From a virus (lineage: Duplodnaviria > Heunggongvirae > Uroviricota > Caudoviricetes): a stretch of DNA of 12,109 bases. The position numbers and the translations under genes were made by a program. Shown piece by piece: positions 1 to 12,109 of the stretch. The stretch is taken from the IMG/VR virus record IMGVR_UViG_3300019790_000026, positions 1 through 12,109 of that record. The stretch is one strand, 5' to 3'. Each line of letters begins with the position of its first letter. Within the stretch, counting starts at the first letter, position 1. The notes under the pieces were generated by a model. The model saw only the letters and a program-made list of their open reading frames with translations, was not told the origin of the DNA and searched no databases.

Positions 1-264
1 TTCCTCGATCCGGTGTTGTCGTTGTCTCAGCAGTGCACTGGTCTGTTCTGCTTCGGCATAGAGCCGCGCCTGCTCCCGGTTATTGGTTTCAGTCAGAATG
101 GACAGGCTGATAAGCTGGCTGTTTTTCTTCGTCAGTTCCTGCGCTTTACTTTTCAGCGCCGCGCGCTGCGTTTCGATGGTGTGGCTGGCGCTGTTAAGCC
201 GCCACGACTGCCAGCCCAGCGCAACGAGTGCCAGCGCCACCACTACTGCCAGCGCACGCGTCAT
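1..264 (-). CDS. Rz/LysB-like i-spanin, partial (3-prime end lies beyond the left edge)
   Basis: Minus-strand ATG at 264..262 preceded by AAGGAG. Translation MTRALAVVVALALVALGWQSW... has an N-terminal transmembrane segment followed by a charged, coiled-coil-like region, as in Rz-family spanins. The start overlaps the upstream stop as ATGA. Confidence 0.6.
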   Translation of the reverse strand, partial: MTRALAVVVALALVALGWQSWRLNSASHTIETQRAALKSKAQELTKKNSQLISLSILTETNNREQARLYAEAEQTSALLRQRQHRIEE

Positions 265-458
265 AGTCCAGCTCCTTTAAGGCACCAGGCCATCTCCCGC
301 GCACGGCGGTTATCCAGCCCCTGATTAAACACACCTTTTACATAAACCCAGCGCGGCAACTGTCGGCACGCATCTGCCCAGCGCCGCTGATTGAGCAATT
401 TCACCAGTGTGGAACTACAGGCATTGCCCGTTGCTGCTTCTGCAGAGCAGACTCCAGT
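261..458 (-). pseudogene. C-terminal fragment of a GH24 (T4/P22-type) phage lysozyme, 5-prime truncated
   Basis: Minus-strand frame ending in TGA at 263..261 translates to ...LLNQRRWADACRQLPRWVYVKGVFNQGLDNRRAREMAWCLKGAGL, which resembles the conserved C-terminus of phage lysozymes. There is no start codon, and an in-frame stop sits at 459-461, so only about 65 codons remain. Confidence 0.45.
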
Positions 459-546
459 TCAGACAGGCGTTCTTCCTGCTCAGACAGAGATTTTTCGGTT
501 CGCGCGCTCAGGTTTTGCTGCTCAGTGGCGACCAGCTCCACGGCTC

Positions 547-2472
547 ATGACAGTGAAAGCAAAGCGTTTTCGCATCGGGGTGGAAGGTGCCACCACCGAC
601 GGACGCGAAATCCAGCGTGAATGGCTGGAACAGATGGCAGCCAGCTACAACCCGGCGGTGTATACCGCGCTGATTAACCTTGAGCACATCAAGTCTTATC
701 TGCCGGACAGCACCTTTAACCGCTACGGCAAGGTGACGGCGCTGTTTGCTGAGGAAATCACGGAAGGTCCGCTGGCAGGCAAGATGGCGCTGTATGCCGA
801 CGTTGAGCCAACGGAGTCCCTGGTGGAACTGGTGAAAAAACGCGACAAGTGGGGTGACTATGGGCCGCTGGATCAGATGCAGCTCACCACCGCCGCACGC
901 TACTGCCAGCTCATTATGAAGGAGCACAAAGAAGGGAAAGATTTCAAAGAGATTGACCTGCTGGCGCGCCAGTCGGAGCGCCATGCGCGGATCGGCAAGT
1001 TTAACAATGGCGGCAACGAAGCCGACTTAAACCCTAACGTCGCCAACCGCAACAAAGGCCCGCGTCGTCAGCCGGAAAAGAACGTTTTCACCGATGAACA
1101 GATTGAGAAGCTGGAAGAAATCTTCCATTCCTCCATGTTCAACTACCAGCGCCACTGGTGGGAAGCCGGAAAAACCAACCGCATCCGCAACCTGCTGAAG
1201 TCACGCCAGATCGGCGCGACCTTCTATTTTGCCCGTGAAGCCCTGATTGACGCCCTGCTAACCGGGCGTAACCAGATTTTCCTTTCCGCCAGCAAGGCAC
1301 AGGCCCACGTCTTTAAGCAGTACATCATCGACTTCGCCAAAGAAGTGGAGGTGGAGCTGAAAGGCGATCCGATAGTGCTTCCTAACGGGGCCACGCTGTA
1401 CTTCCTCGGCACCAATGCCCGCACGGCCCAGAGTTACCACGGCAACCTGTATCTGGATGAATATTTCTGGATACCGAAATTCCAAGAGCTGCGCAAAGTG
1501 GCTTCCGGTATGGCTATTCACAAAAAATGGCGACAAACCTATTTTTCCACGCCATCCAGCCTGACACACAGTGCTTATCCGTTCTGGTCCGGTGCGCTGT
1601 TCAACCGTGGGCGCAACAAAGCCGACAAGGTGGACATCGACCTGTCCCACAGCAATCTGGCCCCCGGCCTGCTGTGCACAGACGGGCAATACCGCCAGAT
1701 AGTCACCGTGGAAGATGCGGTGCGCGGCGGCTGTAACCTGTTCGACCTCGACCAGCTACGCATGGAGTACAGCCCGGACGAATACCAGAACCTGCTGATG
1801 TGCGAGTTCGTGGACGATCTCGCGTCCGTGTTCCCGCTCAGCGAGCTGCAAGCGTGCATGGTGGACAGTTGGGAAATCTGGACCGACTTTCATGCACTGG
1901 CCCTGCGCCCGTTTGGCTGGCGCGAAGTGTGGATCGGTTATGACCCGGCAAAAGGTACGCAGAACGGCGACAGTGCCGGATGCGTGGTGGTGGCACCGCC
2001 AGCCGTGCCGGGTGGTAAGTTCCGCATTCTTGAGCGTCACCAGTGGCGCGGGATGGACTTCCGCGCCCAGGCTGACGCCATCAAAAAACTGACCGAGCAG
2101 TACAACGTGACCTACATCGGCATCGACTCGACAGGTGTCGGCCACGGGGTTTACGAGAACGTGAAAGCGTTTTTTCCAGCCGTCCGGGAGTTTGTCTACA
2201 ACCCCAACGTTAAAAACGCCCTGGTACTCAAGGCCTACGACATTATCAGTCACCGTCGTCTGGAGTTTGACGCCGGACACACCGACATAGCGCAGTCATT
2301 TATGGCAATCCGTCGCGCCACCACCGCCAGCGGCAACCGCCCAACCTATGAAGCCAGCCGCAGCGAAGAAGCCAGCCATGCCGATCTGGCCTGGGCAACA
2401 ATGCACGCACTGTTTAACGAACCGCTGCAGGGCGAGTCCGCCAATACCAGCAATATTGTGGAGATTTTTTGA
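547..2472 (+). CDS. Terminase ATPase/large subunit (P2 gpP-like) with a foreign N-terminus resembling capsid scaffold/protease gpO (apparent fusion)
   Basis: From about codon 98 onward (KRDKWGD..., DFKEIDLL, SRQIGATFYFAREAL, NQIFLSASKAQAHVFK, LYFLGTNARTAQSYHGN) the ORF matches my recollection of the GpP terminase family. Residues 1-97 (KRFRIGVEGATTDGREI...INLEH...FNRYGKV) match the GPO scaffold N-terminal motifs. ATG at 547 is preferred over the tracked TTG at 391. The stop overlaps the portal start. Confidence 0.7.
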   Translation: MTVKAKRFRIGVEGATTDGREIQREWLEQMAASYNPAVYTALINLEHIKSYLPDSTFNRYGKVTALFAEEITEGPLAGKMALYADVEPTESLVELVKKRDKWGDYGPLDQMQLTTAARYCQLIMKEHKEGKDFKEIDLLARQSERHARIGKFNNGGNEADLNPNVANRNKGPRRQPEKNVFTDEQIEKLEEIFHSSMFNYQRHWWEAGKTNRIRNLLKSRQIGATFYFAREALIDALLTGRNQIFLSASKAQAHVFKQYIIDFAKEVEVELKGDPIVLPNGATLYFLGTNARTAQSYHGNLYLDEYFWIPKFQELRKVASGMAIHKKWRQTYFSTPSSLTHSAYPFWSGALFNRGRNKADKVDIDLSHSNLAPGLLCTDGQYRQIVTVEDAVRGGCNLFDLDQLRMEYSPDEYQNLLMCEFVDDLASVFPLSELQACMVDSWEIWTDFHALALRPFGWREVWIGYDPAKGTQNGDSAGCVVVAPPAVPGGKFRILERHQWRGMDFRAQADAIKKLTEQYNVTYIGIDSTGVGHGVYENVKAFFPAVREFVYNPNVKNALVLKAYDIISHRRLEFDAGHTDIAQSFMAIRRATTASGNRPTYEASRSEEASHADLAWATMHALFNEPLQGESANTSNIVEIF

Positions 2473-3497
2473 TGGGAAAGAGTAAGAAAAACCGCGCTGC
2501 GGCGACGAACCAGATCCAGCATAAAAACCAAACTTCAGCCGAAGCATTCAGCTTCGGTGATCCCGTTCCTGTTCTGGACCGCCGCGAATTACTGGACTAT
2601 GTGGAATGCGTAAAGATGGACCGCTGGTATGAGCCACCCGTAAGTTTTGACGGACTGGCGCGAACATTCCGCGCCGCCGTACACCACAGTTCACCGATTG
2701 CAGTAAAGTGCAACATTCTGACCAGCACCTACATCCCTCACCCGCTGCTCAGCCAGCAGGCGTTTTCACGTTTTGTGCAGGACTATCTGGTTTTTGGTAA
2801 CGCCTACCTGGAGAAACGCACGAACCGATTCGGTGAAGTTATCGCCCTTGAGCCTGCGCTGGCAAAATACACCCGACGCGGATTAGACCTAGATACCTAC
2901 TGGTTTGTGCAATACGGCATGACCACGCAGCCGTATCAGTTCACGAAAGGCAGCATTTTTCATCTGATGGAACCGGACATCAACCAGGAGATCTACGGCC
3001 TGCCCGGCTATCTTTCTGCCATCCCATCCGCCCTGCTCAACGAGTCCGCCACGCTGTTCCGCCGAAAGTATTACATTAACGGTAGTCATGCAGGCTTCAT
3101 CATGTACATGACCGATGCCGCGCAGAACCAGGAAGATGTGAACAACCTCCGCAATGCGATGAAAAGTGCCAAAGGCCCTGGCAACTTCCGCAACCTGTTT
3201 ATGTACTCGCCTAATGGTAAAAAAGACGGACTTCAGATTATCCCGTTGTCAGAAGTCACAGCGAAGGATGAGTTTCTGAATATCAAGAACGTGAGCCGTG
3301 ATGACATGATGGCGGCACACCGCGTGCCGCCGCAAATGATGGGAATTATGCCTAATAATGTCGGGGGGTTTGGGGATGTGGAGAAGGCTAGCAAGGTATT
3401 CGTAAGAAACGAATTGATGCCCCTGCAGAAACGATTGCAGGAACTAAATAACTGGTTGGACGAAGAAGTGCTCAATTTTTCAACCTATGAGCTTTAG
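2472..3497 (+). CDS. Portal protein (P2 gpQ-like)
   Basis: 341-aa ORF directly after the terminase gene with TGATG stop/start overlap. Size and position match P2 Q, and the sequence resembles the gpQ portal family. ATG at 2472 is preferred over the tracked TTG at 2469. Confidence 0.85.
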   Translation: MGKSKKNRAAATNQIQHKNQTSAEAFSFGDPVPVLDRRELLDYVECVKMDRWYEPPVSFDGLARTFRAAVHHSSPIAVKCNILTSTYIPHPLLSQQAFSRFVQDYLVFGNAYLEKRTNRFGEVIALEPALAKYTRRGLDLDTYWFVQYGMTTQPYQFTKGSIFHLMEPDINQEIYGLPGYLSAIPSALLNESATLFRRKYYINGSHAGFIMYMTDAAQNQEDVNNLRNAMKSAKGPGNFRNLFMYSPNGKKDGLQIIPLSEVTAKDEFLNIKNVSRDDMMAAHRVPPQMMGIMPNNVGGFGDVEKASKVFVRNELMPLQKRLQELNNWLDEEVLNFSTYEL

Positions 3498-3502
3498 TTT
3501 TA

Positions 3503-3533
3503 AAACGAAGACCATTAGGTCTTCGCTTTATTT
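3503..3533. terminator. Bidirectional intrinsic terminator shared by the convergent portal and retron RT genes
   Basis: Hairpin CGAAGACC (3506-3513), loop ATTA, GGTCTTCG (3518-3525), flanked by an A-run on the left and CTTTATTT on the right, so it reads as stem plus U-tract on both strands. The RT stop codon lies in the loop. Confidence 0.5.
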
Positions 3534-4477
3534 AAAGGGTTCTTTCCATATTTTTTTTCTAATTTGCTAATATAAGTTATTAATCTCCTATGGCTTTTTG
3601 AATCCACACTTAAAATAAATGACAACCATCCCCTAACGTGTTCTATCTCAGAAGACTTACCGCAAAATATATGATGTATCTTTGCTCTAATTTCTTTATA
3701 TTTTTCTCTACCTATCCCAACTTTCTCTTGTGAAATAACTAAACCTGTAACTTTCCTCTGACTACGAGGCCCACTAATACAAGTTTTTTTTGAGTTAATA
3801 ACCAATCCTTCACTTGGGATTATAGAAAATAAAAAATCACGTGCTTTAACAACCTTTTTCATAGACTGTGCAGATAAGGTGAGATCATCGGCATATCTCG
3901 TATATATCAAGCCCCGACTACCTGCATAACCCTGAATACGATAATCAAGTTTAGAACATATTAGATTAGCTAATTTAGGTGATGATGGAGCACCTTGTGG
4001 TAGCAGATTTTTATAACAACATATTTTTGTCAAAACTGAAGATATTAGTCGATTATAACCAAGAGAATGGAACACTCCAAAAACTTTGTTAGCAGTTAAA
4101 CTTGGGAAAAAATCCTCCAAATCAATATTCAGTATAAAGTTTGCCCCAATATGCGGGGTAGCATTATTCAAAATAGATTGGTGCTTTTCAAATCCAATAG
4201 AAAAAGGAGATGACGACAGTTTATCTAAAATGTTACGTAGAACCCATCCTTGTAAGGCTTTAAGTTCTCGAGAAGGTTGGTAAATGGTTCTCATTCTCTT
4301 CTCTGGGCCTTTCTTTTCTACAGTGTAGATCCTATAGCGAAAATCAGCTGTATAGATTAACAACCGAAGTGTTTCAACAGATATGCGAGTCGCCTTAGAC
4401 ATGTCATGCAAATTGTTCATGACAGGTAGGCCGAGATTTCTCAATCTAAAAGTGTTCAAATATTCAGCGGATTTCAT
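3515..4477 (-). CDS. ret: Retron reverse transcriptase, Ec86 / Retron-Eco1 type
   Basis: 320-aa ORF with reverse-transcriptase motifs (NIDLEDFFPS, LPQGAPSSPKLANL, YADDLTLS) and the retron-typical VTG motif (RKVTGLVIS). The translation matches my memory of the published Ec86 RT, and the gene sits immediately downstream of the msr-msd. Confidence 0.93.
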   Translation of the reverse strand: MKSAEYLNTFRLRNLGLPVMNNLHDMSKATRISVETLRLLIYTADFRYRIYTVEKKGPEKRMRTIYQPSRELKALQGWVLRNILDKLSSSPFSIGFEKHQSILNNATPHIGANFILNIDLEDFFPSLTANKVFGVFHSLGYNRLISSVLTKICCYKNLLPQGAPSSPKLANLICSKLDYRIQGYAGSRGLIYTRYADDLTLSAQSMKKVVKARDFLFSIIPSEGLVINSKKTCISGPRSQRKVTGLVISQEKVGIGREKYKEIRAKIHHIFCGKSSEIEHVRGWLSFILSVDSKSHRRLITYISKLEKKYGKNPLNKAKT

Positions 4478-4484
4478 GAAAGTT

Positions 4485-4496
4485 GCGCACCCTTAC
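4485..4496 (-). repeat. Retron a2 inverted repeat (pairs with a1 at 4641-4652)
   Basis: 12-nt exact reverse complement of 4641-4652. Confidence 0.85.
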
Positions 4497-4639
4497 GTCA
4501 GAAAAAACGGGTTTCCTGGTTGGCTCGGAGAGCATCAGGCGATGCTCTCCGTTCCAACAAGGAAAACAGACAGTAACTCAGATTCAATGCAGGATGCCGA
4601 AACAACATCCAGAGGTTGACCTTAATGATAAACCTCTCG

Positions 4640-5563
4640 CTAAGGGTGCGCATACGGAATCTTATCATAGTTAAATGTTGATTTTCTACGGTTTTCAAAA
4701 TTCATAATCTCAAGCCGCAATCGGTCAAGTGTCTTTCTATCAAAGACGCTCCTAACATAGCTAGCCCCCAAAGCAGTGACCTGATAACCATCAGTCATTT
4801 GAAGTATTTTTCGTTCATTTATTAGACGAGAAACAACGGATCTAACAATAATTTTAGATAAAACATCATCTTGCTTTATCGCTTTAAAAGCTAGTTCACA
4901 CAGTGTGCGGTAGTTGACACTATCCAGTAAATAGATACAAGGCAATAGAAACCGCTCTGCGTATAATATATTTCCAATATCTTTTGATACTTTATTTTCT
5001 TTCCTAACCTTCTTAATAGATGCCATTAATTTTTTATATAATCGTAATTTTCTGGCAACATCAATAGATGAATCACACATTTCTTTTAGTTCATTTGAAC
5101 TACAACGCAAAACAGATTTTGAATTAAACTTACGCAACAGGCGAACAGGACCATAGTTAATAAAGCTACGTTTTGATTTAAATTTTGCATCTTGAATGCA
5201 AATCAACTTTCTCCTTAAGTTTTCATTATTAGAGAACGCACCAAGCTCTGTGAAAGACCCCGGACTTTCAGGAAATAAAATTATTACATCGACAGCTTCA
5301 GCCAGAATATTTTCTAAACTTAAAAGGCTATGCTGCCCTTGACCAGCCAAAAGATCATCAAATAGATCTTCTGGATAAAATATATCAACATCACTGAACT
5401 TTGCTAAAAATTGTGATAATTGATGACGCCAAGATTGATGATTAGCAACGTCACCACCACATAGAAAAATGGTTATTTTAATATTAGCTCCTCGATAGAA
5501 GCCTTTCTTTGTGAGATGTCCTATAAGCTGTTGTTGCTGCTCATCGGTAAATTTTTTATTCAT
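4640..5563 (-). CDS. Retron effector: nucleoside 2-deoxyribosyltransferase-like (NDT) domain with a C-terminal putative DNA-binding region
   Basis: 307-aa ORF immediately upstream of msr-msd-ret on the same strand, with RBS GGGGAGA. The N-terminal region (IFLCGGD..., ILFPESPGSFTELGAF) fits the NDT/flavodoxin-like fold with the conserved Glu. Its TAG stop overlaps the a1 repeat. Confidence 0.85.
   Translation of the reverse strand: MNKKFTDEQQQQLIGHLTKKGFYRGANIKITIFLCGGDVANHQSWRHQLSQFLAKFSDVDIFYPEDLFDDLLAGQGQHSLLSLENILAEAVDVIILFPESPGSFTELGAFSNNENLRRKLICIQDAKFKSKRSFINYGPVRLLRKFNSKSVLRCSSNELKEMCDSSIDVARKLRLYKKLMASIKKVRKENKVSKDIGNILYAERFLLPCIYLLDSVNYRTLCELAFKAIKQDDVLSKIIVRSVVSRLINERKILQMTDGYQVTALGASYVRSVFDRKTLDRLRLEIMNFENRRKSTFNYDKIPYAHP
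4641..4652 (-). repeat. Retron a1 inverted repeat; the presumed priming G follows at 4640
   Basis: 12-nt exact reverse complement of 4485-4496, at the 5-prime end of msr. Confidence 0.85.
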
Positions 5564-5704
5564 AATCTCCCCGCTTTTTTTTCTACTTTATACATCAAGT
5601 TATGAATAGATCCAATCTCCATACCACATGGCGCGCGCTCGTATCCCCGCCACGCCTGCCCGCTTTATGCAGTGGTTTTCATGCACATGCATAACATGAG
5701 CAAA

Positions 5705-5730
5705 AGCCCGCCAGTTCTGGCGGATCTGAG
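5705..5730 (-). terminator. Putative intrinsic terminator (minus-strand sense)
   Basis: Perfect hairpin CCGCCAG-N3-CTGGCGG (5708-5726) followed on the minus strand by GCTTTTGC. Confidence 0.3.
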
Positions 5731-6035
5731 CAAAGACGATCCTCAATCGATCATGCGATTTCATGCAGCATAGTCATGCACTGTCAAGGAAGTGAAAATC
5801 CGTATCTGAATGGCCACTTGAAAAACGGATCATACGGGTTTACAAAGATGAATGTTCGCTGTGAACGGGAAGCGGAAGTTAACTTTCAGATAACATAATC
5901 CATATGCACGAGAACCTCTAAAATAGAATGGGACACCTAAGCGGGGTACTTACAACGATTCTTTCCATATTCACAGTTAACACTCTGTTTGGCGTATTTT
6001 TATTCAAATAGCAAACACCAATAAAAGGAGTTTCC

Positions 6036-6371
6036 ATGAACAATATTCCCCCTATACCACAGTTAGGAATTTATGTCTCAAAAATCGATCCCACCCTACG
6101 TATCACTGTAACCGATGTTGATATTGTTGATGGTGAGGATGATTCTCCTGATGATGAATTGTTTTATTTAGTCCACTGGATCGAGGGGGAAGATGAAAGT
6201 GATATGACAGCAATGGGATTTGAGCTAGACCCAGTAGAGTGGCAGGCTTTCGTTGAATCTGAGCAATTAGTGTTTGAGCGTGATCCGTACATGGATTCAA
6301 TCCCCGAAAATTCAAACTTGGCAAAGATTCGGGATTTTCTCATGAAGACTAAACAGAATGATCATTCGTAA
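6036..6371 (+). CDS. Hypothetical small, strongly acidic protein (111 aa)
   Basis: Strong RBS AAAAGGAG 6 nt upstream of ATG. Very Asp/Glu-rich (DVDIVDGEDDSPDDE, EGEDESD). AT-rich relative to the phage core. Divergent from the retron effector. Confidence 0.7.
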   Translation: MNNIPPIPQLGIYVSKIDPTLRITVTDVDIVDGEDDSPDDELFYLVHWIEGEDESDMTAMGFELDPVEWQAFVESEQLVFERDPYMDSIPENSNLAKIRDFLMKTKQNDHS

Positions 6372-6563
6372 GTGTAAGCATCCATCAGGAAAATGGTTTT
6401 GTAAGTGAATCATCAACTTTTAGAGAGTCTCAGACACTCCCACTTCTGCTTCTGACACAAAGCGGACGATCACTTATCAAAATAACCGCCCACCTTACGC
6501 CTTATTTCACTCATTGCCCAAACTAGCCCCCATCAGAATGAATCCTCCTGGGGGCAACATTTC

Positions 6564-6797
6564 TTAATGCAGCCAGCTGTCGTCCTCCCACACCTTCTGC
6601 ATAATTTTCATCACTTGTTTTCTTTCTTCATCCAGTTGCAGTCCGGTTAGTTCCACACCGTTAGAGCTACCTTTGCGAATGCGAATTACCGTTTTGGGAT
6701 ACAGGGGGCGCAGATTGCGGTAAAGCTCGGATTCAAGGGCGTCCAGGGTAGACTGGCTAATCTTCTGCTCTTTATCGATCATTATTTCAATGCGCAT
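6564..6797 (-). CDS. DinI-family protein (DNA-damage-inducible protein I-like)
   Basis: 77-aa product MRIEIMIDKEQKISQSTLDALESELYRNLRPLYP...VWEDDSWLH has the DinI length and pattern (MRIEV..., C-terminal acidic W motif). RBS GGTGA upstream. ATG at 6797 is preferred over the tracked 101-aa extension. Confidence 0.8.
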   Translation of the reverse strand: MRIEIMIDKEQKISQSTLDALESELYRNLRPLYPKTVIRIRKGSSNGVELTGLQLDEERKQVMKIMQKVWEDDSWLH

Positions 6798-6807
6798 AAA
6801 AGTCACC

Positions 6808-6996
6808 TCAGCTGATGACATCCATTGAGCGGTTGTATTCGTGGCTTCTGATTTTTGCCATGAGTTCATCAGTCAATTCAGAAACCCACTGCAGAGCCAG
6901 CCCCTTCTCTTCATCACTACACTCACTAGCCGCTACAAGCTTAAGAAAAAAATCAATGCGCTGGAGCTTCAAAGACTCCAAAAAATAGTCCTGCAT
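6808..6996 (-). CDS. Hypothetical 62-aa protein, first gene of the SOS-boxed operon (possibly the N-terminal part of a Tum-like antirepressor)
   Basis: ORF with strong RBS AGGAGG, directly downstream of the LexA-box promoter and 10 nt upstream of the DinI-like gene. Confidence 0.5.
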   Translation of the reverse strand: MQDYFLESLKLQRIDFFLKLVAASECSDEEKGLALQWVSELTDELMAKIRSHEYNRSMDVIS

Positions 6997-7036
6997 CTTT
7001 CCTCCTATGACACCAAAACAATACTGTATACATAAC

Positions 7037-7056
7037 CACTGTTTATATTTACAGTA
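7037..7056. promoter_or_regulatory. LexA (SOS) box overlapping a putative promoter for the orf62/DinI-like operon
   Basis: cACTGTttatatttACAGta is a perfect CTGT-N8-ACAG with AT-rich spacer. A second half-site (TACTGTATAC) lies at 7022-7031. A TTTACA / TATACT promoter-like pair is on the minus strand. Confidence 0.7.
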
Positions 7057-7148
7057 TATAATAATCTTACTGATGTAAAACGTTTTTTTACGTTCATCGG
7101 CCTGATATGCCTGGTATTATTAAGAGCACGAATTGTCAACCCGCGTAA

Positions 7149-8594
7149 TTAATACAGGTTCCGCCACTTATCATCTTCCTTCAGACGCTGGTTCCGATAG
7201 AAGATACGCAGGCCTGCTCCTGACGGAATACTGCCGCCGCGAAGGAGCAAATCGACTTCTTTCTCGCTGCCATCAAATCCCCTGGACTTCAGTTCATAGA
7301 CGAGCTGCTGTCGCTGATGGTCTGTAATTCGCTGTTTGTAGTCTTTACGCCGTTTCGGTTTCACCTGGCGTAACCTTGCAGCCAGTTCCCGGCGCTCTTT
7401 TTTGCTCATACTGTGCAGGTAATTGTGCAACTCCTTGTCATTCATACGGGTAATATCCGTTCTGGAGTCCCCATCAGCTGATTTGTCTTTCCCTTGTTGG
7501 TTCAAATTTTCAGCAAGGGGACAGTTATTGCCACGAGTCCAAGGGGCGCAAGCGCCCTGGTCGGCTGCCGCCTCCTGAACGTCAACGGCCTTACGAACCA
7601 TTTTCCACTTCACCGCATGAGTGCAGATCTTGCCCTCTGCAATGGGTGACCAGATGCCATAAATACGAATACCGTGATCGCCATATGCGGTCGGTTCTTC
7701 GTTGATTTCATAAGCAGTTCTGATGAGGTGATATTTGCGGGGAACCAGTACGCCGCCCTGCTTCATGATGTAGGTGGCAAAACAACCAGCATCAGCAGCA
7801 GCCAGGATTGCATCAAGACGCGGGTTATCCAGTACCGGCGCACCTGCTTTTTTGTCACCCTGTTGCCTTGCCGCCTGACCAGCCAGCAATCGCAGTTCAC
7901 GGTAAGCCTGACGCCCCGGAATGCCAAAGAAGCGGAATTGCTGAACACGATGCAGAGACGCCCAGGCATTAACGTATTCAGCGTTATCACGCAGGGATTT
8001 ACCCGTTTCCTTGCTGATCTCCCCAGCCAGACCACGCCCGTCAATGTTCTTACTGATGTATTTCGCGATATAGCTTGTTGGCGTACCTTTGCGCGGGTTT
8101 ATCAGCTCAGACTTAAAGCGTGGTCCCGTGTTATTGCCCAGCTCCTCGCGGTCTTCACGGATGGCAAACTTACGCAGTAATGCAGTGATGGCGCGGCGGT
8201 CTTTTTTACGCATGAAACACATGAGATGCCAGTGCACAGTACCGTCATGATGCGGCTCAGCTACCGCACCTGCAGCAACACGCCCGATCTCTGCGGTTGC
8301 ACTCATGACGTAATGTGGCAGTTTCTCTTTTGCCACCTCATTAATCGGTACGCATGGCAGGCAGTGAATCTGAGCCAGAAAACCATCTACCAGCGTTGAA
8401 TCTTCAGTCAGATCGGTAAGCAGCCAGATTTCTGGTGCGGTTAATAAATGAGGTTGCGCTGGGTTCAACTTGTTCCGCAGAATCTGCACATTCATGCCAG
8501 CACGTTCTGCCAGTTGCACCAGGTTGTGGCGCAATGCGAATGCACGACAGGCTTCATCAAAATGTGGATGTTTGGAAACTTGGTAATCAAACAT
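7149..8594 (-). CDS. In-frame fusion ORF: 186 CII-like N-terminus (~115 aa) joined to the C-terminal catalytic part of a gpA-type rolling-circle replication initiator
   Basis: N-terminus [24 protein letters not shown]...[26 protein letters not shown] matches my recollection of phage 186 CII. The downstream part carries the HUH-like HWHLM motif and the paired-tyrosine motif [12 protein letters not shown] typical of P2 gpA / phiX174 A proteins. ATG at 8594 with RBS AGAGG. Confidence 0.65.
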
Positions 8595-8626
8595 GGTCAA
8601 TGCCTCTGATGTATTTCAGAATCGAA

Positions 8627-8848
8627 CTAATTAAGGTTTAGATTGCATTCTGAAAGCGCATCAACGGTCATTGCTGCTATGTTGATCATCACTTTTTCGC
8701 GTTTTTTATCTTTGCGCAGTCGGTGACGGATAAGGCGTCCATCAGCCAACATGTCATTGATGGTATCGATGGATAGCCCTGTCAGCTCGCTATAGCGTTC
8801 AATAGTCACATGAGGGGTGGTAAGAGTGATTGAAATGTTAGGTCTCAT
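8627..8848 (-). CDS. Apl/Cox-like small HTH protein (first early-lytic gene: excisionase / transcription regulator)
   Basis: 73-aa ORF divergent from the CI gene and immediately upstream of the CII-like ORF, as apl is in phage 186. HTH-like segment [21 protein letters not shown]. Confidence 0.5.
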
Positions 8849-8967
8849 GATGCAACATTCCTCGTTTAATGATGATTAATCAGGACGAATACGGATCGTT
8901 TGTATTTTGTGAACACCATAAACATACGATCGCACAGTGAAATCGTCAAGATAAAAGTTCACTTGGA
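8849..8967. promoter_or_regulatory. Immunity switch region between apl-like and cI-like genes (lytic/lysogenic promoters and candidate operators)
   Basis: 119-bp divergent intergenic region containing related motifs ATACGGATCGTTTGTAT and ATACGATCGCAC. Its position matches the pR/pL switch of 186-type phages. Confidence 0.4.
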
Positions 8968-9543
8968 GTGACCATGAATTTGGAGAAAGGCGGACGAGGC
9001 GCTATAGAGCGCATGGTAGAAGCTTATGGATTCAAGACTCGACAGGCGTTGTGCGATCATTTAGGAATCTCTAAAAGTACACTCGCCACACGCTACATGC
9101 GTGACTCATTCCCAGCAGAATGGGTAATCCAGTGCGCCCTTGAAACAGGCACCTCGCTTAATTGGCTCACAACCGGGCATGGTTCAAAGCAAACTTCAGG
9201 TAATACAAATACTATGGAAGTTGCTAAATATGTATTATCTGATGGGGCCTTGTGTGAAGACGGTTTTTATATTTTCGATAGAGAATTTCTACCGTCGGCA
9301 TTCAAGAATCTTTTTGTAATCACAGATAATAATTCTGAATTTATTTGTGATAAGGAATTTGATGATATACGTGATGGTAAATGGGTAATAAGTATTGATG
9401 GCGAAATAACGATCCGTGACATTACTCGTTTACCCGGTGGAAGAATCTTCGTCGAGGGTGGAAATAGAGCCTTCGAGTGCAAGATAGAAGATGTTGAAAT
9501 AATTGGGAAAATTATAAGTTTAACAATTAAGTACGTTAGGTAA
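8968..9543 (+). CDS. cI: CI-type immunity repressor (phage 186 CI-like)
   Basis: 191 aa (186 CI is 192 aa). N-terminal HTH (TRQALCDHLGISKSTLATRYMRD) with a C-terminal oligomerisation-like domain. RBS GGAGTGA. Divergent from the apl-like gene and upstream of int. Confidence 0.8.
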   Translation: MTMNLEKGGRGAIERMVEAYGFKTRQALCDHLGISKSTLATRYMRDSFPAEWVIQCALETGTSLNWLTTGHGSKQTSGNTNTMEVAKYVLSDGALCEDGFYIFDREFLPSAFKNLFVITDNNSEFICDKEFDDIRDGKWVISIDGEITIRDITRLPGGRIFVEGGNRAFECKIEDVEIIGKIISLTIKYVR

Positions 9544-9558
9544 TACCGGGAGGAAACT

Positions 9559-9750
9559 ATGCTTGGTAAGGTATTTTTTGTGGTTTTATCATGCTCTTTG
9601 TTATTAAACCCACTAACTACCTATGCTAAAAATTATCCTTGTTCTGGGAAAAAGGGAGGTGTCTCTCACTGTACCTCCGATGGAAAGTTCGTTTGCAATG
9701 ATGGAACTATTAGTAAATCAAAAAAAATCTGTACTAAAAACTCGCGATAA
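9559..9750 (+). CDS. Small secreted Cys-rich protein (63 aa) inserted between cI and int
   Basis: RBS GGAGGAAACT-ATG. Predicted signal peptide [23 protein letters not shown], then a Lys-rich mature peptide of about 40 aa with 5 Cys. Confidence 0.55.
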
Positions 9751-9936
9751 ATTTTGCTTTTATATCTGCGCCTAATATAACAATGAGCCGCAGGCTAACC
9801 GCAAAAGTCACATACTCACATAGCAAAAAATAGCTAACTTCATTATGGCTTCAGTGAGATGTATGGTCGCAGGATTTCATACATTGACACTGGTTATACA
9901 TACAGTAAAAATGCTCTCTACTGGAGGGCATTTTTT

Positions 9937-10953
9937 ATGGCAGTACGAAAACTCACCACAGGAAAATGGCTTTGCGAATGTTACCCCGCCGGACGTAGTG
10001 GACGTCGTGTGCGTAAACAATTCGCCACCAAAGGCGAAGCTCTGGCTTTTGAGCGTCACACGATGGAAGAAACCGAAGCAAAGCCCTGGCTGGGCGAATC
10101 AGTGGATCGTCGGACATTGAAAGACGTGATTGAGCTATGGTTCAAACTACATGGTAAATCTCTGACAGCTGGGCAGCATGTCTATGACAAACTGCTGTTG
10201 ATGGTTGACGCTCTGGGCAATCCCCTTGCAACTGATCTAACCTCTAAAATGTTTGCCCACTATCGAGATAAACGCCTGACAGGTGAGATCTACTTCAGCG
10301 AGAAATGGAAGAAAGGAGCAAGCCCGGTCACCATTAACCTGGAGCAAAGCTATCTAAGTAGTGTTTTTAGCGAACTATCCCGCCTGGGCGAATGGTCGTA
10401 TCCGAACCCACTGGAGAACATGCGAAAATTCACCATCGCAGAAAAAGAGATGGCATGGCTTACCCATGAGCAGATTGTTGAACTGCTGGCTGATTGCAAA
10501 CGTCAGGACCCAATTCTGGCACTGGTAGTCAAGATATGCCTAAGCACAGGCGCACGCTGGCGAGAAGCAATAAATCTTACCCGCTCGCAAGTGACCAAAT
10601 ACCGAATTACCTTTGTAAGAACGAAGGGGAAGAAAAACAGAAGCATCCCTATCAGTAAAGAGCTTTACGAAGAGATCATGGCGCTTGATGGGTTCAATTT
10701 CTTTACAGACTGCTATTTTCAATTTTTATCCGTGATGGAAAAAACGTCTATCGTGCTCCCTCGCGGTCAACTGACACACGTTCTGCGCCATACGTTTGCG
10801 GCGCACTTCATGATGTCGGGTGGAAATATCCTTGCTTTGCAAAAAATCCTCGGACATCACGATATAAAAATGACTATGCGCTATGCCCATTTAGCACCCG
10901 ATCATCTTGAGACGGCTCTGAGATTCAACCCCCTCGCAACGCTAGAAGTGTGA
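9937..10953 (+). CDS. int: Tyrosine integrase (P2/186 Int family)
   Basis: 338 aa. Catalytic residues in context: ...STGARWREA..., ...HVLRHTFA..., ...MRYAHL.... RBS GGAGGG. ATG at 9937 is preferred over the tracked start at 9859. Confidence 0.9.
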   Translation: MAVRKLTTGKWLCECYPAGRSGRRVRKQFATKGEALAFERHTMEETEAKPWLGESVDRRTLKDVIELWFKLHGKSLTAGQHVYDKLLLMVDALGNPLATDLTSKMFAHYRDKRLTGEIYFSEKWKKGASPVTINLEQSYLSSVFSELSRLGEWSYPNPLENMRKFTIAEKEMAWLTHEQIVELLADCKRQDPILALVVKICLSTGARWREAINLTRSQVTKYRITFVRTKGKKNRSIPISKELYEEIMALDGFNFFTDCYFQFLSVMEKTSIVLPRGQLTHVLRHTFAAHFMMSGGNILALQKILGHHDIKMTMRYAHLAPDHLETALRFNPLATLEV

Positions 10954-11061
10954 TCTACTGGTGCAAAAATAACATCATCCCCCACTAGCTGAGTTAATTG
11001 CGTCAGAGTAAACTTTTATCAGTATATAAGTTCACTTTTATTCAATATATTAAGAGATTAC

Positions 11062-11394
11062 ATGGCTATCATTACCGTAAAAAAACATACTGTCAAAAAA
11101 GCATTATCGATGGGATTTGAAAAAGTACTTGACGATCGTGGTTATGATTCTGGGGCGTACTACGTTAAAGATGGCAAAAAGTGGATTTTTGATATTGTTG
11201 CGCTTAAGCAAAAACAAGGAGCAACCTCAGATGATGAGTTAAAAATCCTTGGGTATGATGTTGATACATATAATCTTGTAAAAAATGAATCTAATGAACT
11301 GGCTGAACTTTATCAAGATATTGCAGTTGAAGATGGTGAGCCAATGTATCTAGAGGGTGGCGTGTACTTATATCCTGATGGTTCTATCCGTTAG
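11062..11394 (+). CDS. Hypothetical protein (110 aa), AT-rich, just downstream of int
   Basis: ORF with AT-rich promoter-like upstream region. No family recognised. Composition contrasts with the GC-rich sequence that follows it. Confidence 0.5.
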   Translation: MAIITVKKHTVKKALSMGFEKVLDDRGYDSGAYYVKDGKKWIFDIVALKQKQGATSDDELKILGYDVDTYNLVKNESNELAELYQDIAVEDGEPMYLEGGVYLYPDGSIR

Positions 11395-11528
11395 CATGCA
11401 AATTGGCAGCACAACCGGGTTGTTCCAAATGGCGACAAAGTGGCGGCAGCGGTTGGCATTACCCCGTAATAACCACCACTGACCACCAACCCAACTTATT
11501 GTTTTTACTATAACTTATTGTTTTCATT

Positions 11529-11594
11529 AACCCGTTTACATAAATGGGTTTTTTGTTATCTAAAACTTATCTACTACCCTGCAACCCTCTCAAC
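11529..11594. repeat. Inverted repeat copy A (66 bp, perfect reverse complement of 12044-12109)
   Basis: Direct comparison: 11529-11594 equals the reverse complement of 12044-12109 at every position. Confidence 0.95.
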
Positions 11595-12074
11595 CATCCT
11601 CAAAATCTCCTCGCGCGATAGCGGCTTACGGTCGGTGACAAAATGCAGCGTCATCCCCTCAATAAACGCATCAAGCGCGCGGGCGGTTCCGGGTTCAAAC
11701 CATTGTTCGAGCGTTTGCTGACTGCGCTGCATCCAGTTTTGCATTACCGTTTTTAATAGCGGTTTTCGGCTAGCCAGCGCGTAGAGCTGGTACATCAGCT
11801 CCATGTTATCCGGCGTTGCAACCTGTGAGCTGTAGATCATATCGGTGATAGCCTGGCATGCGCCCGGAGCATCACTAACATCGCTAAAAAATGCCTGATA
11901 TTGCCGGGACATGATCTCAGTAAAACTGCTGAACGCCTCCAGTAACAACTCATCAATTCCTGAAAAATAGTAGGTCATCGATCCCAACGGTACCCCGGCA
12001 AGGGTAGCAATTTTGCGGTGCGTAACAGCATGTATTCCGTAAAGTTGAGAGGGTTGCAGGGTAGTAGATAAGTT
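11574..12074 (-). pseudogene. TetR-family transcriptional regulator, apparently 5-prime truncated by the inverted repeat
   Basis: The minus-strand frame is open from 12074 to the TAG at 11576..11574. It encodes a TetR-type HTH ([27 protein letters not shown]) and a ligand-binding-like C-terminal domain. There is no ATG upstream of the HTH (only a TTG at 11987, inside the HTH). The first codons and the last codons plus stop lie inside the two inverted-repeat copies. Confidence 0.65.
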
Positions 12075-12109
12075 TTAGATAACAAAAAACCCATTTATGT
12101 AAACGGGTT
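12044..12109. repeat. Inverted repeat copy B (66 bp, cut by the window edge, so it may be longer)
   Basis: Perfect reverse complement of 11529-11594. The window ends inside or at the end of the repeat. Confidence 0.95.

What the first reader, a model, noticed from the sequence alone, without database searches (positions are those of the whole stretch)
5625..5665. Degenerate cos-like sequence on the far side of the retron from the portal gene
The reverse complement of 5642-5657 contains GGCGTGGCGGGGA, matching the first 13 nt of the 19-nt cohesive end I recall for phage 186 (GGCGTGGCGGGGAAAGCAT); the rest diverges. If this is cos, the retron island is inserted between the portal gene and cos, and the site may be mutated.
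Basis: partly seen in the sequence, partly recalled or inferred. Interest (0 to 1): 0.4.

Follow-up and report, generated by a model that had tools for sequence, protein, structure and literature searches.

The report
Intact prophage cos site beside retron Ec86
The flagged sequence is the normal, undamaged DNA-packaging (cos) site of the defective 186/Fels-2-type prophage of E. coli B, and its position next to retron Ec86 was published in 1996, so it is real but ordinary.

Summary
GGCGTGGCGGGGA lies at 5644-5656 on the minus strand (0.01 matches expected by chance), and the 186 cohesive end was recalled correctly.

It is a cos site. Outside the 13-nt seed, 81 of 138 positions match the 186 cos junction in an ungapped register (shuffles: mean 35, maximum 54).

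It is not degenerate. The full 19-mer GGCGTGGCGGGGATACGAG plus CGCGCGC is identical to the cos of Fels-2, SopEPhi, Cartapus, MLG42 and the plaque-forming phage SEN8. The same 26-mer occurs in at least 120 IMG/VR contigs. This is a second cos type, not a mutated 186 site.

A 151-bp module (5631-5781) is conserved. It contains the published 55-bp P2/P4 core (5631-5685). The window's copy is 92% identical to the family consensus, which is about the family median.

The window is 100% identical here to E. coli BL21(DE3). The retron is Ec86/Eco1:
- NDT effector, 4640-5563
- msr-msd, 4484-4652
- RT, 3515-4477

It fills the gap between the portal gene and cos, ending about 28 nt from the cohesive end. 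Relatives carry other cargo there, including an Ec67-class retron at the same junction.

Dodd and Egan (1996) described this arrangement, and Rousset et al. (2022) described the cos-adjacent hotspot. Verdict: already known, low interest.

The parts
5638..5656 (-). 19-nt cohesive-end sequence GGCGTGGCGGGGATACGAG. This is the stretch between the two terminase nicks. The nick positions are inferred by homology with P2 and 186.
   Evidence: Exact 13-nt seed. 15/19 identical to 186, 14/19 to P2 and P4, 19/19 to SEN8. SEN8 cos published as this same 19-mer. The SEN8 record ends and the Smp131 record starts exactly at this boundary.
5631..5685 (-). Equivalent of the 55-bp P2/P4 cos core, covering -29 to +26 relative to the first base of the cohesive end.
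   Evidence: P2 and P4 are alike only over -29..+26, which is 55 bp. This matches the '55-bp core' of Ziermann and Calendar 1990 as cited in PMC9594776 and PMC5694545. The window matches 42/55 to P2, 43/55 to P4, 44/55 to 186 and 53/55 to SEN8.
5631..5781 (-). Full conserved cos module of 151 bp, with sharp edges on both sides.
   Evidence: Column conservation is about 0.9 from -125 to +26 in 113 unique viral-contig sequences and about 0.3-0.5 outside. BLAST hits to 80 phage records cover window 5631-5782. The ungapped register is kept with 186, P4 and P2.
5752..5779 (-). Distal cluster of three same-strand GCATG(A) repeats, at 5752-5756, 5762-5766 and 5775-5779. Candidate terminase recognition elements (inference).
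   Evidence: Five GCATG copies in 5657-5781 against 0.3 expected from the window's own density. TGCAT repeats sit at the same aligned places in 186 and P2.
5680..5690 (-). Proximal pair of GCATG repeats (5680-5684 and 5686-5690) at the edge of the 55-bp core.
   Evidence: Aligned with TGCATTAAAACC of P2, P4 and 186.
5707..5724 (-). G+C-rich hairpin TCCGCCAGAACTGGCGGG followed by CTTTTG, inside the module. It looks like a terminator for transcripts arriving from the DinI/tum side.
   Evidence: Terminator-like scan. The hairpin is conserved in the family, and 186 and P4 have a hairpin at the same place.
3498..5630 (-). Retron Ec86 (Eco1) island filling the portal-to-cos gap.
   Evidence: A sibling prophage (L073) is 96.6% identical to the window from the DinI side up to +28 (window 5628) and then diverges. 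Family conservation ends at +26. The portal stop codon ends at 3497.
4640..5563 (-). Retron effector, nucleoside-deoxyribosyltransferase-like, type II-A.
   Evidence: PADLOC NDT_II-A, E = 2.7e-94. BL21 annotation 'retron St85 family effector protein'.
4484..4652 (-). Retron non-coding RNA gene (msr-msd), bounded by the inverted repeats TGCGCACCCTTA / TAAGGGTGCGCA.
   Evidence: Two exact copies in opposite orientation at 4641-4652 (minus) and 4484-4495 (plus), against 0.01 expected. Sequence read. The identification as Ec86 msr-msd rests on my memory of the Ec86 ncRNA sequence and on 100% identity to BL21.
3515..4477 (-). Retron reverse transcriptase.
   Evidence: Pfam RVT_1, 2.9e-25. PADLOC RT_II-A, 7.1e-128.
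3506..3525 (.). Hairpin with T-runs on both sides, between the convergent portal and RT genes. The RT stop codon lies in its loop.
   Evidence: plus-strand terminator-like site; sequence. It differs from the terminator seen at empty sites of relatives, 186 and P2.
2469..3497 (+). Portal protein gene (P2 Q / 186 W homologue). Its 3' end points toward cos, as in P2 and 186.
   Evidence: Pfam Phage_portal. BL21 annotation. P2 and 186 layout.
6036..6371 (+). 111-aa gene of unknown function in the second variable slot, between cos and DinI.
   Evidence: phrog_17127, unknown function. No Pfam or PADLOC hit. The DinI-to-cos distance varies from 202 to 3444 nt among relatives.

Best explanation
Window 5631-5781 is the cos site of a defective 186/Fels-2-type (Peduoviridae) prophage of E. 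coli B. Cos is the DNA-packaging recognition and cleavage site. By homology with P2 and 186, the phage terminase would nick the two strands 19 nt apart, on either side of 5638-5656. That would leave 5' single-stranded ends reading GGCGTGGCGGGGATACGAG, the start of the linear virion genome, with the portal gene just inside the left end. The sequence is intact and belongs to a common second cos type that differs from the 186/P2 type in the last six bases of the overhang. Retron Ec86 occupies the variable cargo slot between cos and the portal gene. What is shown: homology, conservation and position. What is inferred: the cleavage positions and present-day competence. The prophage cannot use the site itself, because in BL21 the capsid and small-terminase genes are deleted. 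Any use would need a helper phage with a compatible terminase.
For: - Seed: the exact 13-nt match is far above chance, and the 186 and P2 cos sequences were verified from their records.
- Extended homology to 186, P4 and P2 in an ungapped register over 151 bp: 81, 76 and 67 of 138 non-seed positions match, against shuffle means of about 35 and maxima of 54-57.
- The P2/P4 55-bp core maps to 5631-5685 (literature).
- The 26-mer is identical in Fels-2, SopEPhi, SEN8, Cartapus and MLG42 and in at least 120 viral contigs. SEN8 is a plaque-forming temperate phage with this 19-mer published as its cos. Cartapus annotates the region as a cos homologous to that of P2.
- The flank is 92% identical to the family consensus, against a median of 91.2%.
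- Position and orientation match P2 and 186: replication gene and DinI/tum, then cos, then portal and terminase.
- The window is 100% identical to BL21(DE3) over 834-12046.
- Published: retrons Ec67 and Ec86 replace about 180 bp between cos and the packaging-gene terminator of a 186-related prophage (Dodd and Egan 1996, as reported in PMC6868368).
Against: - No experiment here shows cleavage at this site.
- SEN8's cos was assigned during annotation, not by sequencing the DNA ends, so the nick positions for this cos type rest on homology with P2 and 186.
- The viral-contig sample was selected with the exact 26-mer. Conservation inside those 26 bp is therefore by construction, and only the 125-nt flank is an independent test.
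- The host prophage is defective. BL21 lacks the N, M, L, X and Y region, and the window's terminase gene has a rearranged 5' end, so selection on this copy may have ceased.
- Whether P2 or 186 terminase accepts this cos type is unknown.
Confidence: 0.93

Rival explanations
1. It is a decayed, non-functional cos relic. The site was once 186-like and has accumulated mutations in a dead prophage.
For: Only 15 of 19 bases match the 186 cohesive end. The prophage is defective. Ten positions in the 125-nt flank differ from the family consensus.
Against: The 19-mer plus 7 bp is identical to that of viable phages and of at least 120 viral contigs. Flank identity to the consensus equals the family median, and every variant base recurs in other members. 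The 'divergent' six bases are a fixed lineage character, not private changes.
Confidence: 0.05
2. The conserved block is a small protein-coding gene. The 54-aa ORF at 5600-5764 on the minus strand matches phrog_28685 and is annotated 'hypothetical protein' in several phage records. On this reading the cos resemblance is secondary.
For: The ORF exists. It matches phrog_28685 at E = 2.6e-26. CDS features overlap the block in MLG42 and some Klebsiella phage records.
Against: In 47 of 105 distinct relatives the frame is closed by a stop within the first 22 codons. Variation is spread evenly over codon positions (4.17, 3.68, 3.88). The ORF runs out of the conserved block into cargo-specific DNA at 5600-5630. 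The block aligns in register with the non-coding cos regions of 186, P2 and P4.
Confidence: 0.015
3. It is a chance G+C-rich match, or a part of the retron such as its promoter or non-coding RNA.
For: The block lies directly upstream of the retron operon. Rfam finds no RNA family anywhere in the window, so the ncRNA had to be located by other means.
Against: Chance expectation is 0.01. The msr-msd inverted repeats lie at 4484-4652, about 1 kb away. The block is present unchanged in phages with no retron and with empty sites.
Confidence: 0.005

Closest known systems
cos of phage 186 and PSP3 (Eganvirus): GGCGTGGCGGGGAAAGCAT
   Same: First 13 nt of the cohesive end are identical. 23 of 29 bases match in the right-end flank and 6 of 7 in the left flank. 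TGCAT repeats and a hairpin sit in the same ungapped register over 151 bp. The position between tum/DinI and the portal gene is the same.
   Different: The last six bases of the overhang are TACGAG rather than AAGCAT. In 186 only about 176 bp, including terminator tW, separate cos from the portal gene. Here 2.1 kb of retron fills that gap.
cos of Fels-2, SopEPhi, SEN8 (Felsduovirus) and Cartapus, MLG42 (Elveevirus)
   Same: The 19-mer plus CGCGCGC is identical. The 151-bp module is 86-91% identical. The layout is the same, with variable cargo on both sides.
   Different: The cargo differs: a 565-aa hypothetical protein in Fels-2, two ORFs in SopEPhi, a hypothetical protein plus an HNH endonuclease in SEN8, a DUF4145 protein in Cartapus, and retron Ec86 here. 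Those are complete phages, whereas this prophage is deleted.
cos of P2 and its satellite P4 (55-bp core, Ziermann and Calendar 1990)
   Same: 42 and 43 of 55 core positions match. The overhang is 19 nt and the cleavage geometry is the same by homology.
   Different: Five of the 19 overhang bases differ. No data show that P2 terminase accepts this type.
Retron Ec86/Ec67 insertion site (Dodd and Egan 1996; Lim 1991) and the cos-adjacent defence hotspot of P2-like phages (Rousset et al. 2022)
   Same: This is the Ec86 locus itself, 100% identical to BL21. A sibling prophage (L073) carries an Ec67-class RT-Toprim retron starting at the same junction, +29 from the first base of the cohesive end. 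The gpA-to-gpQ interval around cos is a documented hotspot that includes retrons.
   Different: Nothing of substance. This analysis adds that cos splits the hotspot into two slots with sharp edges at -125 and +26.

Membership tests
P2/186-family cos site | G+C-rich 19-nt cohesive-end sequence homologous to GGCGAGGCGGGGAAAGCAC (P2) and GGCGTGGCGGGGAAAGCAT (186) | tested here: met
   14/19 and 15/19 identical; 19/19 to the published SEN8 cos.
P2/186-family cos site | Conserved 55-bp core around the cohesive end (-29..+26) | tested here: met
   42-44 of 55 identical to P2, P4 and 186; 53 of 55 to SEN8. The core is defined from the P2/P4 comparison and from the literature.
P2/186-family cos site | Location between the replication/tum end of the genome and the 3' end of the portal gene, with the GGCG strand reading toward the portal gene | tested here: met
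   The window order is P, Q, cargo, cos, cargo, DinI, A remnant. This matches 186, P2, Fels-2, SopEPhi, SEN8 and Cartapus.
P2/186-family cos site | Cleavage by terminase to give 19-nt 5' overhangs, and packaging of DNA that carries the site | not testable with these tools
   Needs end-sequencing of virion DNA or a cosmid transduction assay.
P2/186-family cos site | Cognate terminase (large subunit P and small subunit M) encoded in the same element | tested here: not met
   BL21 has an intact P gene, but the scaffold gene is followed directly by a lysis-gene fragment, so there are no N, M or L genes. In the window the 5' end of P is replaced by an inverted piece of the scaffold gene. This bears on use in cis, not on the identity of the site.
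Retron Ec86 (Eco1), type II-A | Retron RT of clade II-A, an NDT-like effector, and msr-msd flanked by inverted repeats | tested here: met
   PADLOC RT_II-A 7.1e-128 and NDT_II-A 2.7e-94. Inverted repeats at 4484-4495 and 4641-4652. 100% identical to E. coli B strains.
cos-adjacent cargo hotspot of P2-like phages | Different, unrelated gene sets at the same position next to cos in related phages | tested here: met
   The cos-to-portal distance is 157-3535 nt in 87 loci and the DinI-to-cos distance is 202-3444 nt in 80 loci. Nine other loci carry other retron RTs in the portal-side slot. Described in PMC9122126.

The most novel reading that the evidence does not exclude
The working packaging signal of the whole P2/186/P4/Fels-2 group may be the about 150-bp module rather than the published 55-bp core. 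The extra 96 nt on the right-end side keep a fixed ungapped register across all four lineages. They carry a same-strand array of TGCAT/GCATG repeats plus a hairpin, which could be the binding array for the small terminase subunit, a cosB equivalent. That asymmetry would explain why cargo can sit 27 nt from the cohesive end on the portal side but never closer than 125 nt on the other side. A corollary is that the intact module could let a Fels-2-type helper package the excised defective B prophage together with its retron.
Probability: 0.4. Interest if true: 0.3.

Novelty: already known. Interest (0 to 1): 0.1.

Why it matters
It matters little beyond correct annotation. The site marks the boundary of the Ec86 island. 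It shows that the retron sits in the well-documented cos-adjacent cargo slot of P2-like phages. It also corrects the idea that the site is mutated.

Two practical points follow:
- Phage annotation should recognise at least two cos types in enterobacterial Peduoviridae: ...GGGGAAAGCA(T/C) and ...GGGGATACGAG.
- ORFs called across the cos module (phrog_28685) are probably spurious.

Tried and rejected
- Rfam scan of the whole window at E <= 1 found nothing, not even the retron RNA. I located the msr-msd through its inverted repeats instead.
- I fetched the PSP3 cos hoping it would be of the window's type. PSP3 is, from memory, a P4 helper, so that would have shown cross-type recognition. It is identical to the 186 cos, so it tells nothing.
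- I looked for a literature link to the defective E. coli B prophage that gave rise to P2 Hy dis. I found no support. The window's repressor is of the 186 CI type, not the P2 C type, so I dropped the idea.
- I tested the 54-aa ORF over cos as a coding gene and rejected it, despite a PHROG hit.
- The consensus promoter scan gave no site between cos and the NDT start. A weak TTGGAT-17-TATAAA that I read by eye upstream of the effector gene is not claimed.

Full report
**Observation**

The window reads ...GCGCGCG CTCGTATCCCCGCCACGCC TGCCCGC... around 5631-5663. The reverse complement contains GGCGTGGCGGGGA at 5644-5656. This is the only match in the window even with one mismatch allowed. Dinucleotide-preserving shuffles give 0.01 matches on average.

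The first 19 nt of the phage 186 record are GGCGTGGCGGGGAAAGCAT and are annotated as the cohesive end. P2 starts with GGCGAGGCGGGGAAAGCAC.

**Is it cos?**

I joined the right and left ends of 186, P2 and P4 to rebuild their cos junctions and compared them with the reverse complement of the window.

- P2 and P4 share only a 55-bp stretch, from -29 to +26 relative to the first base of the cohesive end. This is the 55-bp core of Ziermann and Calendar 1990 as cited in PMC9594776, PMC5694545 and PMC3931495.
- The window's equivalent is 5631-5685. It matches P2 at 42 of 55 positions, P4 at 43 and 186 at 44.
- Over 151 bp (-125 to +26), with no gaps and leaving out the 13-nt seed, 81 of 138 positions match 186, 76 match P4 and 67 match P2. 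Shuffles give a mean of about 35 and never more than 57 in 5000 trials.

**Is it degenerate?**

No. BLAST of 5560-5960 against phage records finds 80 records matching window 5631-5782 at 86-90% identity. They come from Klebsiella, Yersinia, Escherichia, Salmonella and Erwinia Peduoviridae.

- In Fels-2, SopEPhi, SEN8, Cartapus and MLG42 the 19-mer GGCGTGGCGGGGATACGAG and the following CGCGCGC are identical to the window.
- SEN8 is a temperate phage that was isolated, and its virion DNA was sequenced. Its genome paper gives exactly this 19-mer as the cos site, although the assignment was made during annotation, not by end-sequencing. The SEN8 record begins at that 19-mer and ends at the base before it.
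- Cartapus annotates the region as a cos homologous to that of P2.

In 113 distinct sequences from those contigs, column conservation is about 0.9 from -125 to +26 and about 0.3-0.5 immediately outside. Conservation inside the 26-mer is by construction of the search. The 125-nt flank is an independent test.

In that flank the window is 92% identical to the consensus, against a family median of 91.2%. Each of its ten non-consensus bases is also found in other members. The six bases that differ from 186 are a fixed character of a second, widespread cos type.

**Surroundings**

The window is 100% identical over 834-12046 to E. coli BL21(DE3) and other B strains. The gene order, in window orientation, is below.

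| Element | Coordinates | Strand |
|---|---|---|
| Terminase large subunit | ends at 2472 | + |
| Portal protein | 2469-3497 | + |
| Bidirectional hairpin | 3506-3525 | . |
| Retron RT | 3515-4477 | - |
| msr-msd | 4484-4652 | - |
| NDT-like effector | 4640-5563 | - |
| cos module | 5631-5781 | - |
| 111-aa unknown gene | 6036-6371 | + |
| DinI/tum homologue | 6564-6797 | - |
| Fused CII/replication-gene remnant | 7149-8600 | - |
| Cox/Apl-like excisionase | 8627-8848 | - |
| 186-type CI repressor | 8968-9543 | + |
| Integrase | 9859-10953 | + |

This is the 186 map read backwards. PADLOC classes the RT and effector as retron type II-A. The inverted repeats TGCGCACCCTTA / TAAGGGTGCGCA bound the non-coding RNA. 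This is retron Ec86 (Eco1) of E. coli B.

**Island borders**

A sibling prophage (L073) is 96.6% identical to the window from 8269 down to 5628, which is +28 from the first base of the cohesive end. It then diverges into an RT-Toprim type I-C retron, the Ec67 class.

At empty sites of relatives, cos is followed by about 160-190 bp that include a terminator, and then by the portal stop codon, as in 186 and P2. In the window none of that spacer survives apart from the first few bases. The portal stop is followed after 8 nt by a different hairpin whose loop holds the RT stop codon.

Among 87 relatives with this cos type the cos-to-portal distance ranges from 157 to 3535 nt. The DinI-to-cos distance ranges from 202 to 3444 nt in 80. 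Nine other loci carry other retron RTs in the portal-side slot. Cos is thus a fixed 151-bp island between two variable cargo slots.

**How it works**

By homology with P2 and 186, terminase nicks the minus strand 5' of G5656 and the plus strand between 5637 and 5638. This gives 19-nt 5' overhangs, and the portal gene lies just inside the left end of the virion genome. This step is inferred, not shown.

The module holds five same-strand GCATG repeats in 125 nt, against 0.3 expected. It also holds a conserved hairpin at 5707-5724. 186, P2 and P4 have TGCAT repeats, and 186 and P4 also a hairpin, at the same aligned places. I infer that these are recognition elements for the small terminase subunit.

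A cosmid study noted that longer flanks around the P4 cos might contribute to better transduction. That fits a signal larger than 55 bp, but it is not proof.

The prophage cannot use the site itself. In BL21 the scaffold gene abuts a lysis-gene fragment, so the major capsid, small terminase and head-completion genes are missing. The replication gene is also truncated.

**Rivals**

- A decayed relic is unlikely, because the site is identical to those of viable phages and its flank divergence is at the family median.
- A coding reading of the 54-aa ORF at 5600-5764 is rejected, even though it hits phrog_28685. In 47 of 105 distinct relatives a stop falls within the first 22 codons, and variation shows no codon-position bias.
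- Chance, or membership of the retron RNA, is excluded.

**What is known**

[quoted passage not shown] It cites Lim 1991 for the common insertion site.

Rousset et al. 2022 (PMC9122126) showed that the gpA-to-gpQ interval next to cos is a defence hotspot in P2-like phages and includes retrons. A 2026 study confirms this.

I could not read Dodd and Egan directly, so I know its content only through citing papers.

**Verdict**

The identification as cos and the placement of the retron are correct. The "degenerate/mutated" reading is wrong. All of it is already in the literature, so interest is low.

The only mildly new points are these:
- Enterobacterial Peduoviridae have a second common cos type.
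- The conserved module is about 150 bp, with sharp asymmetric edges.

Noticed in passing
window 539-843 and 391-2472: The window differs from every complete E. coli B genome here. BL21 positions equivalent to 3545-3856 and 4162-4423 of locus L008 are missing, and the 305 bp between them is inverted, with 6-nt and 10-nt overlaps at the joints. This puts the first ~99 codons of the capsid-scaffold gene (GPO) in frame with the terminase large subunit, which loses its first ~43 codons, giving the 693-aa ORF. It may be a real template-switch rearrangement in the source strain or an assembly chimera.
   Followed up: partly
window 12044-12109: The last 66 bases are an inverted copy of window ~11529-11594 (BL21 locus L008 15119-15184), joined with a 3-nt overlap. 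This fold-back is typical of a contig-end assembly artefact.
   Followed up: no
window 7149-8600 (minus strand): A single 483-aa ORF fuses the N-terminal part of a CII-like regulator to the C-terminal part of the replication endonuclease gpA. In the relative L064 about 3.4 kb more lies between these parts, so this is an internal deletion of the early region. BL21 annotates both halves as pseudogenes.
   Followed up: partly
window 5600-5764 (minus strand): A 54-aa ORF spans the cos module and matches phrog_28685 ('unknown function'). Several phage records annotate a hypothetical protein here. The frame is broken within the first 22 codons in 47 of 105 relatives, so this PHROG family is probably made of spurious ORFs called across conserved cos DNA.
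   Followed up: yes
window 6036-6371 (plus strand): A 111-aa gene of unknown function (phrog_17127; no Pfam or PADLOC hit) sits alone in the second variable slot, between cos and DinI. Identical or near-identical copies occur in the sibling loci L073 (100%) and L064 (99%). Given the hotspot context it is a candidate accessory or defence gene.
   Followed up: partly
window 3506-3525: A hairpin with T-runs on both sides lies between the convergent portal and RT genes, and the RT stop codon is in its loop. It replaces the terminator found at empty sites of relatives and apparently serves both operons.
   Followed up: partly
L026 and L043 (IMG/VR contigs), +91 to +2075 from cos: Two viral contigs with the same cos type carry a different type II-A retron in the same slot, with the effector gene starting at almost the same distance from cos (+91 against +94). 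The NDT is 50% identical and the RT 59% identical to those of Ec86. The Klebsiella phage 4LV2017 record also has a 'retron St85 family effector' annotated.
   Followed up: partly
window 1-12109: The Rfam scan at E <= 1 returned no family at all, so the experimentally known Ec86 msr-msd RNA is not detected by any current Rfam model.
   Followed up: no
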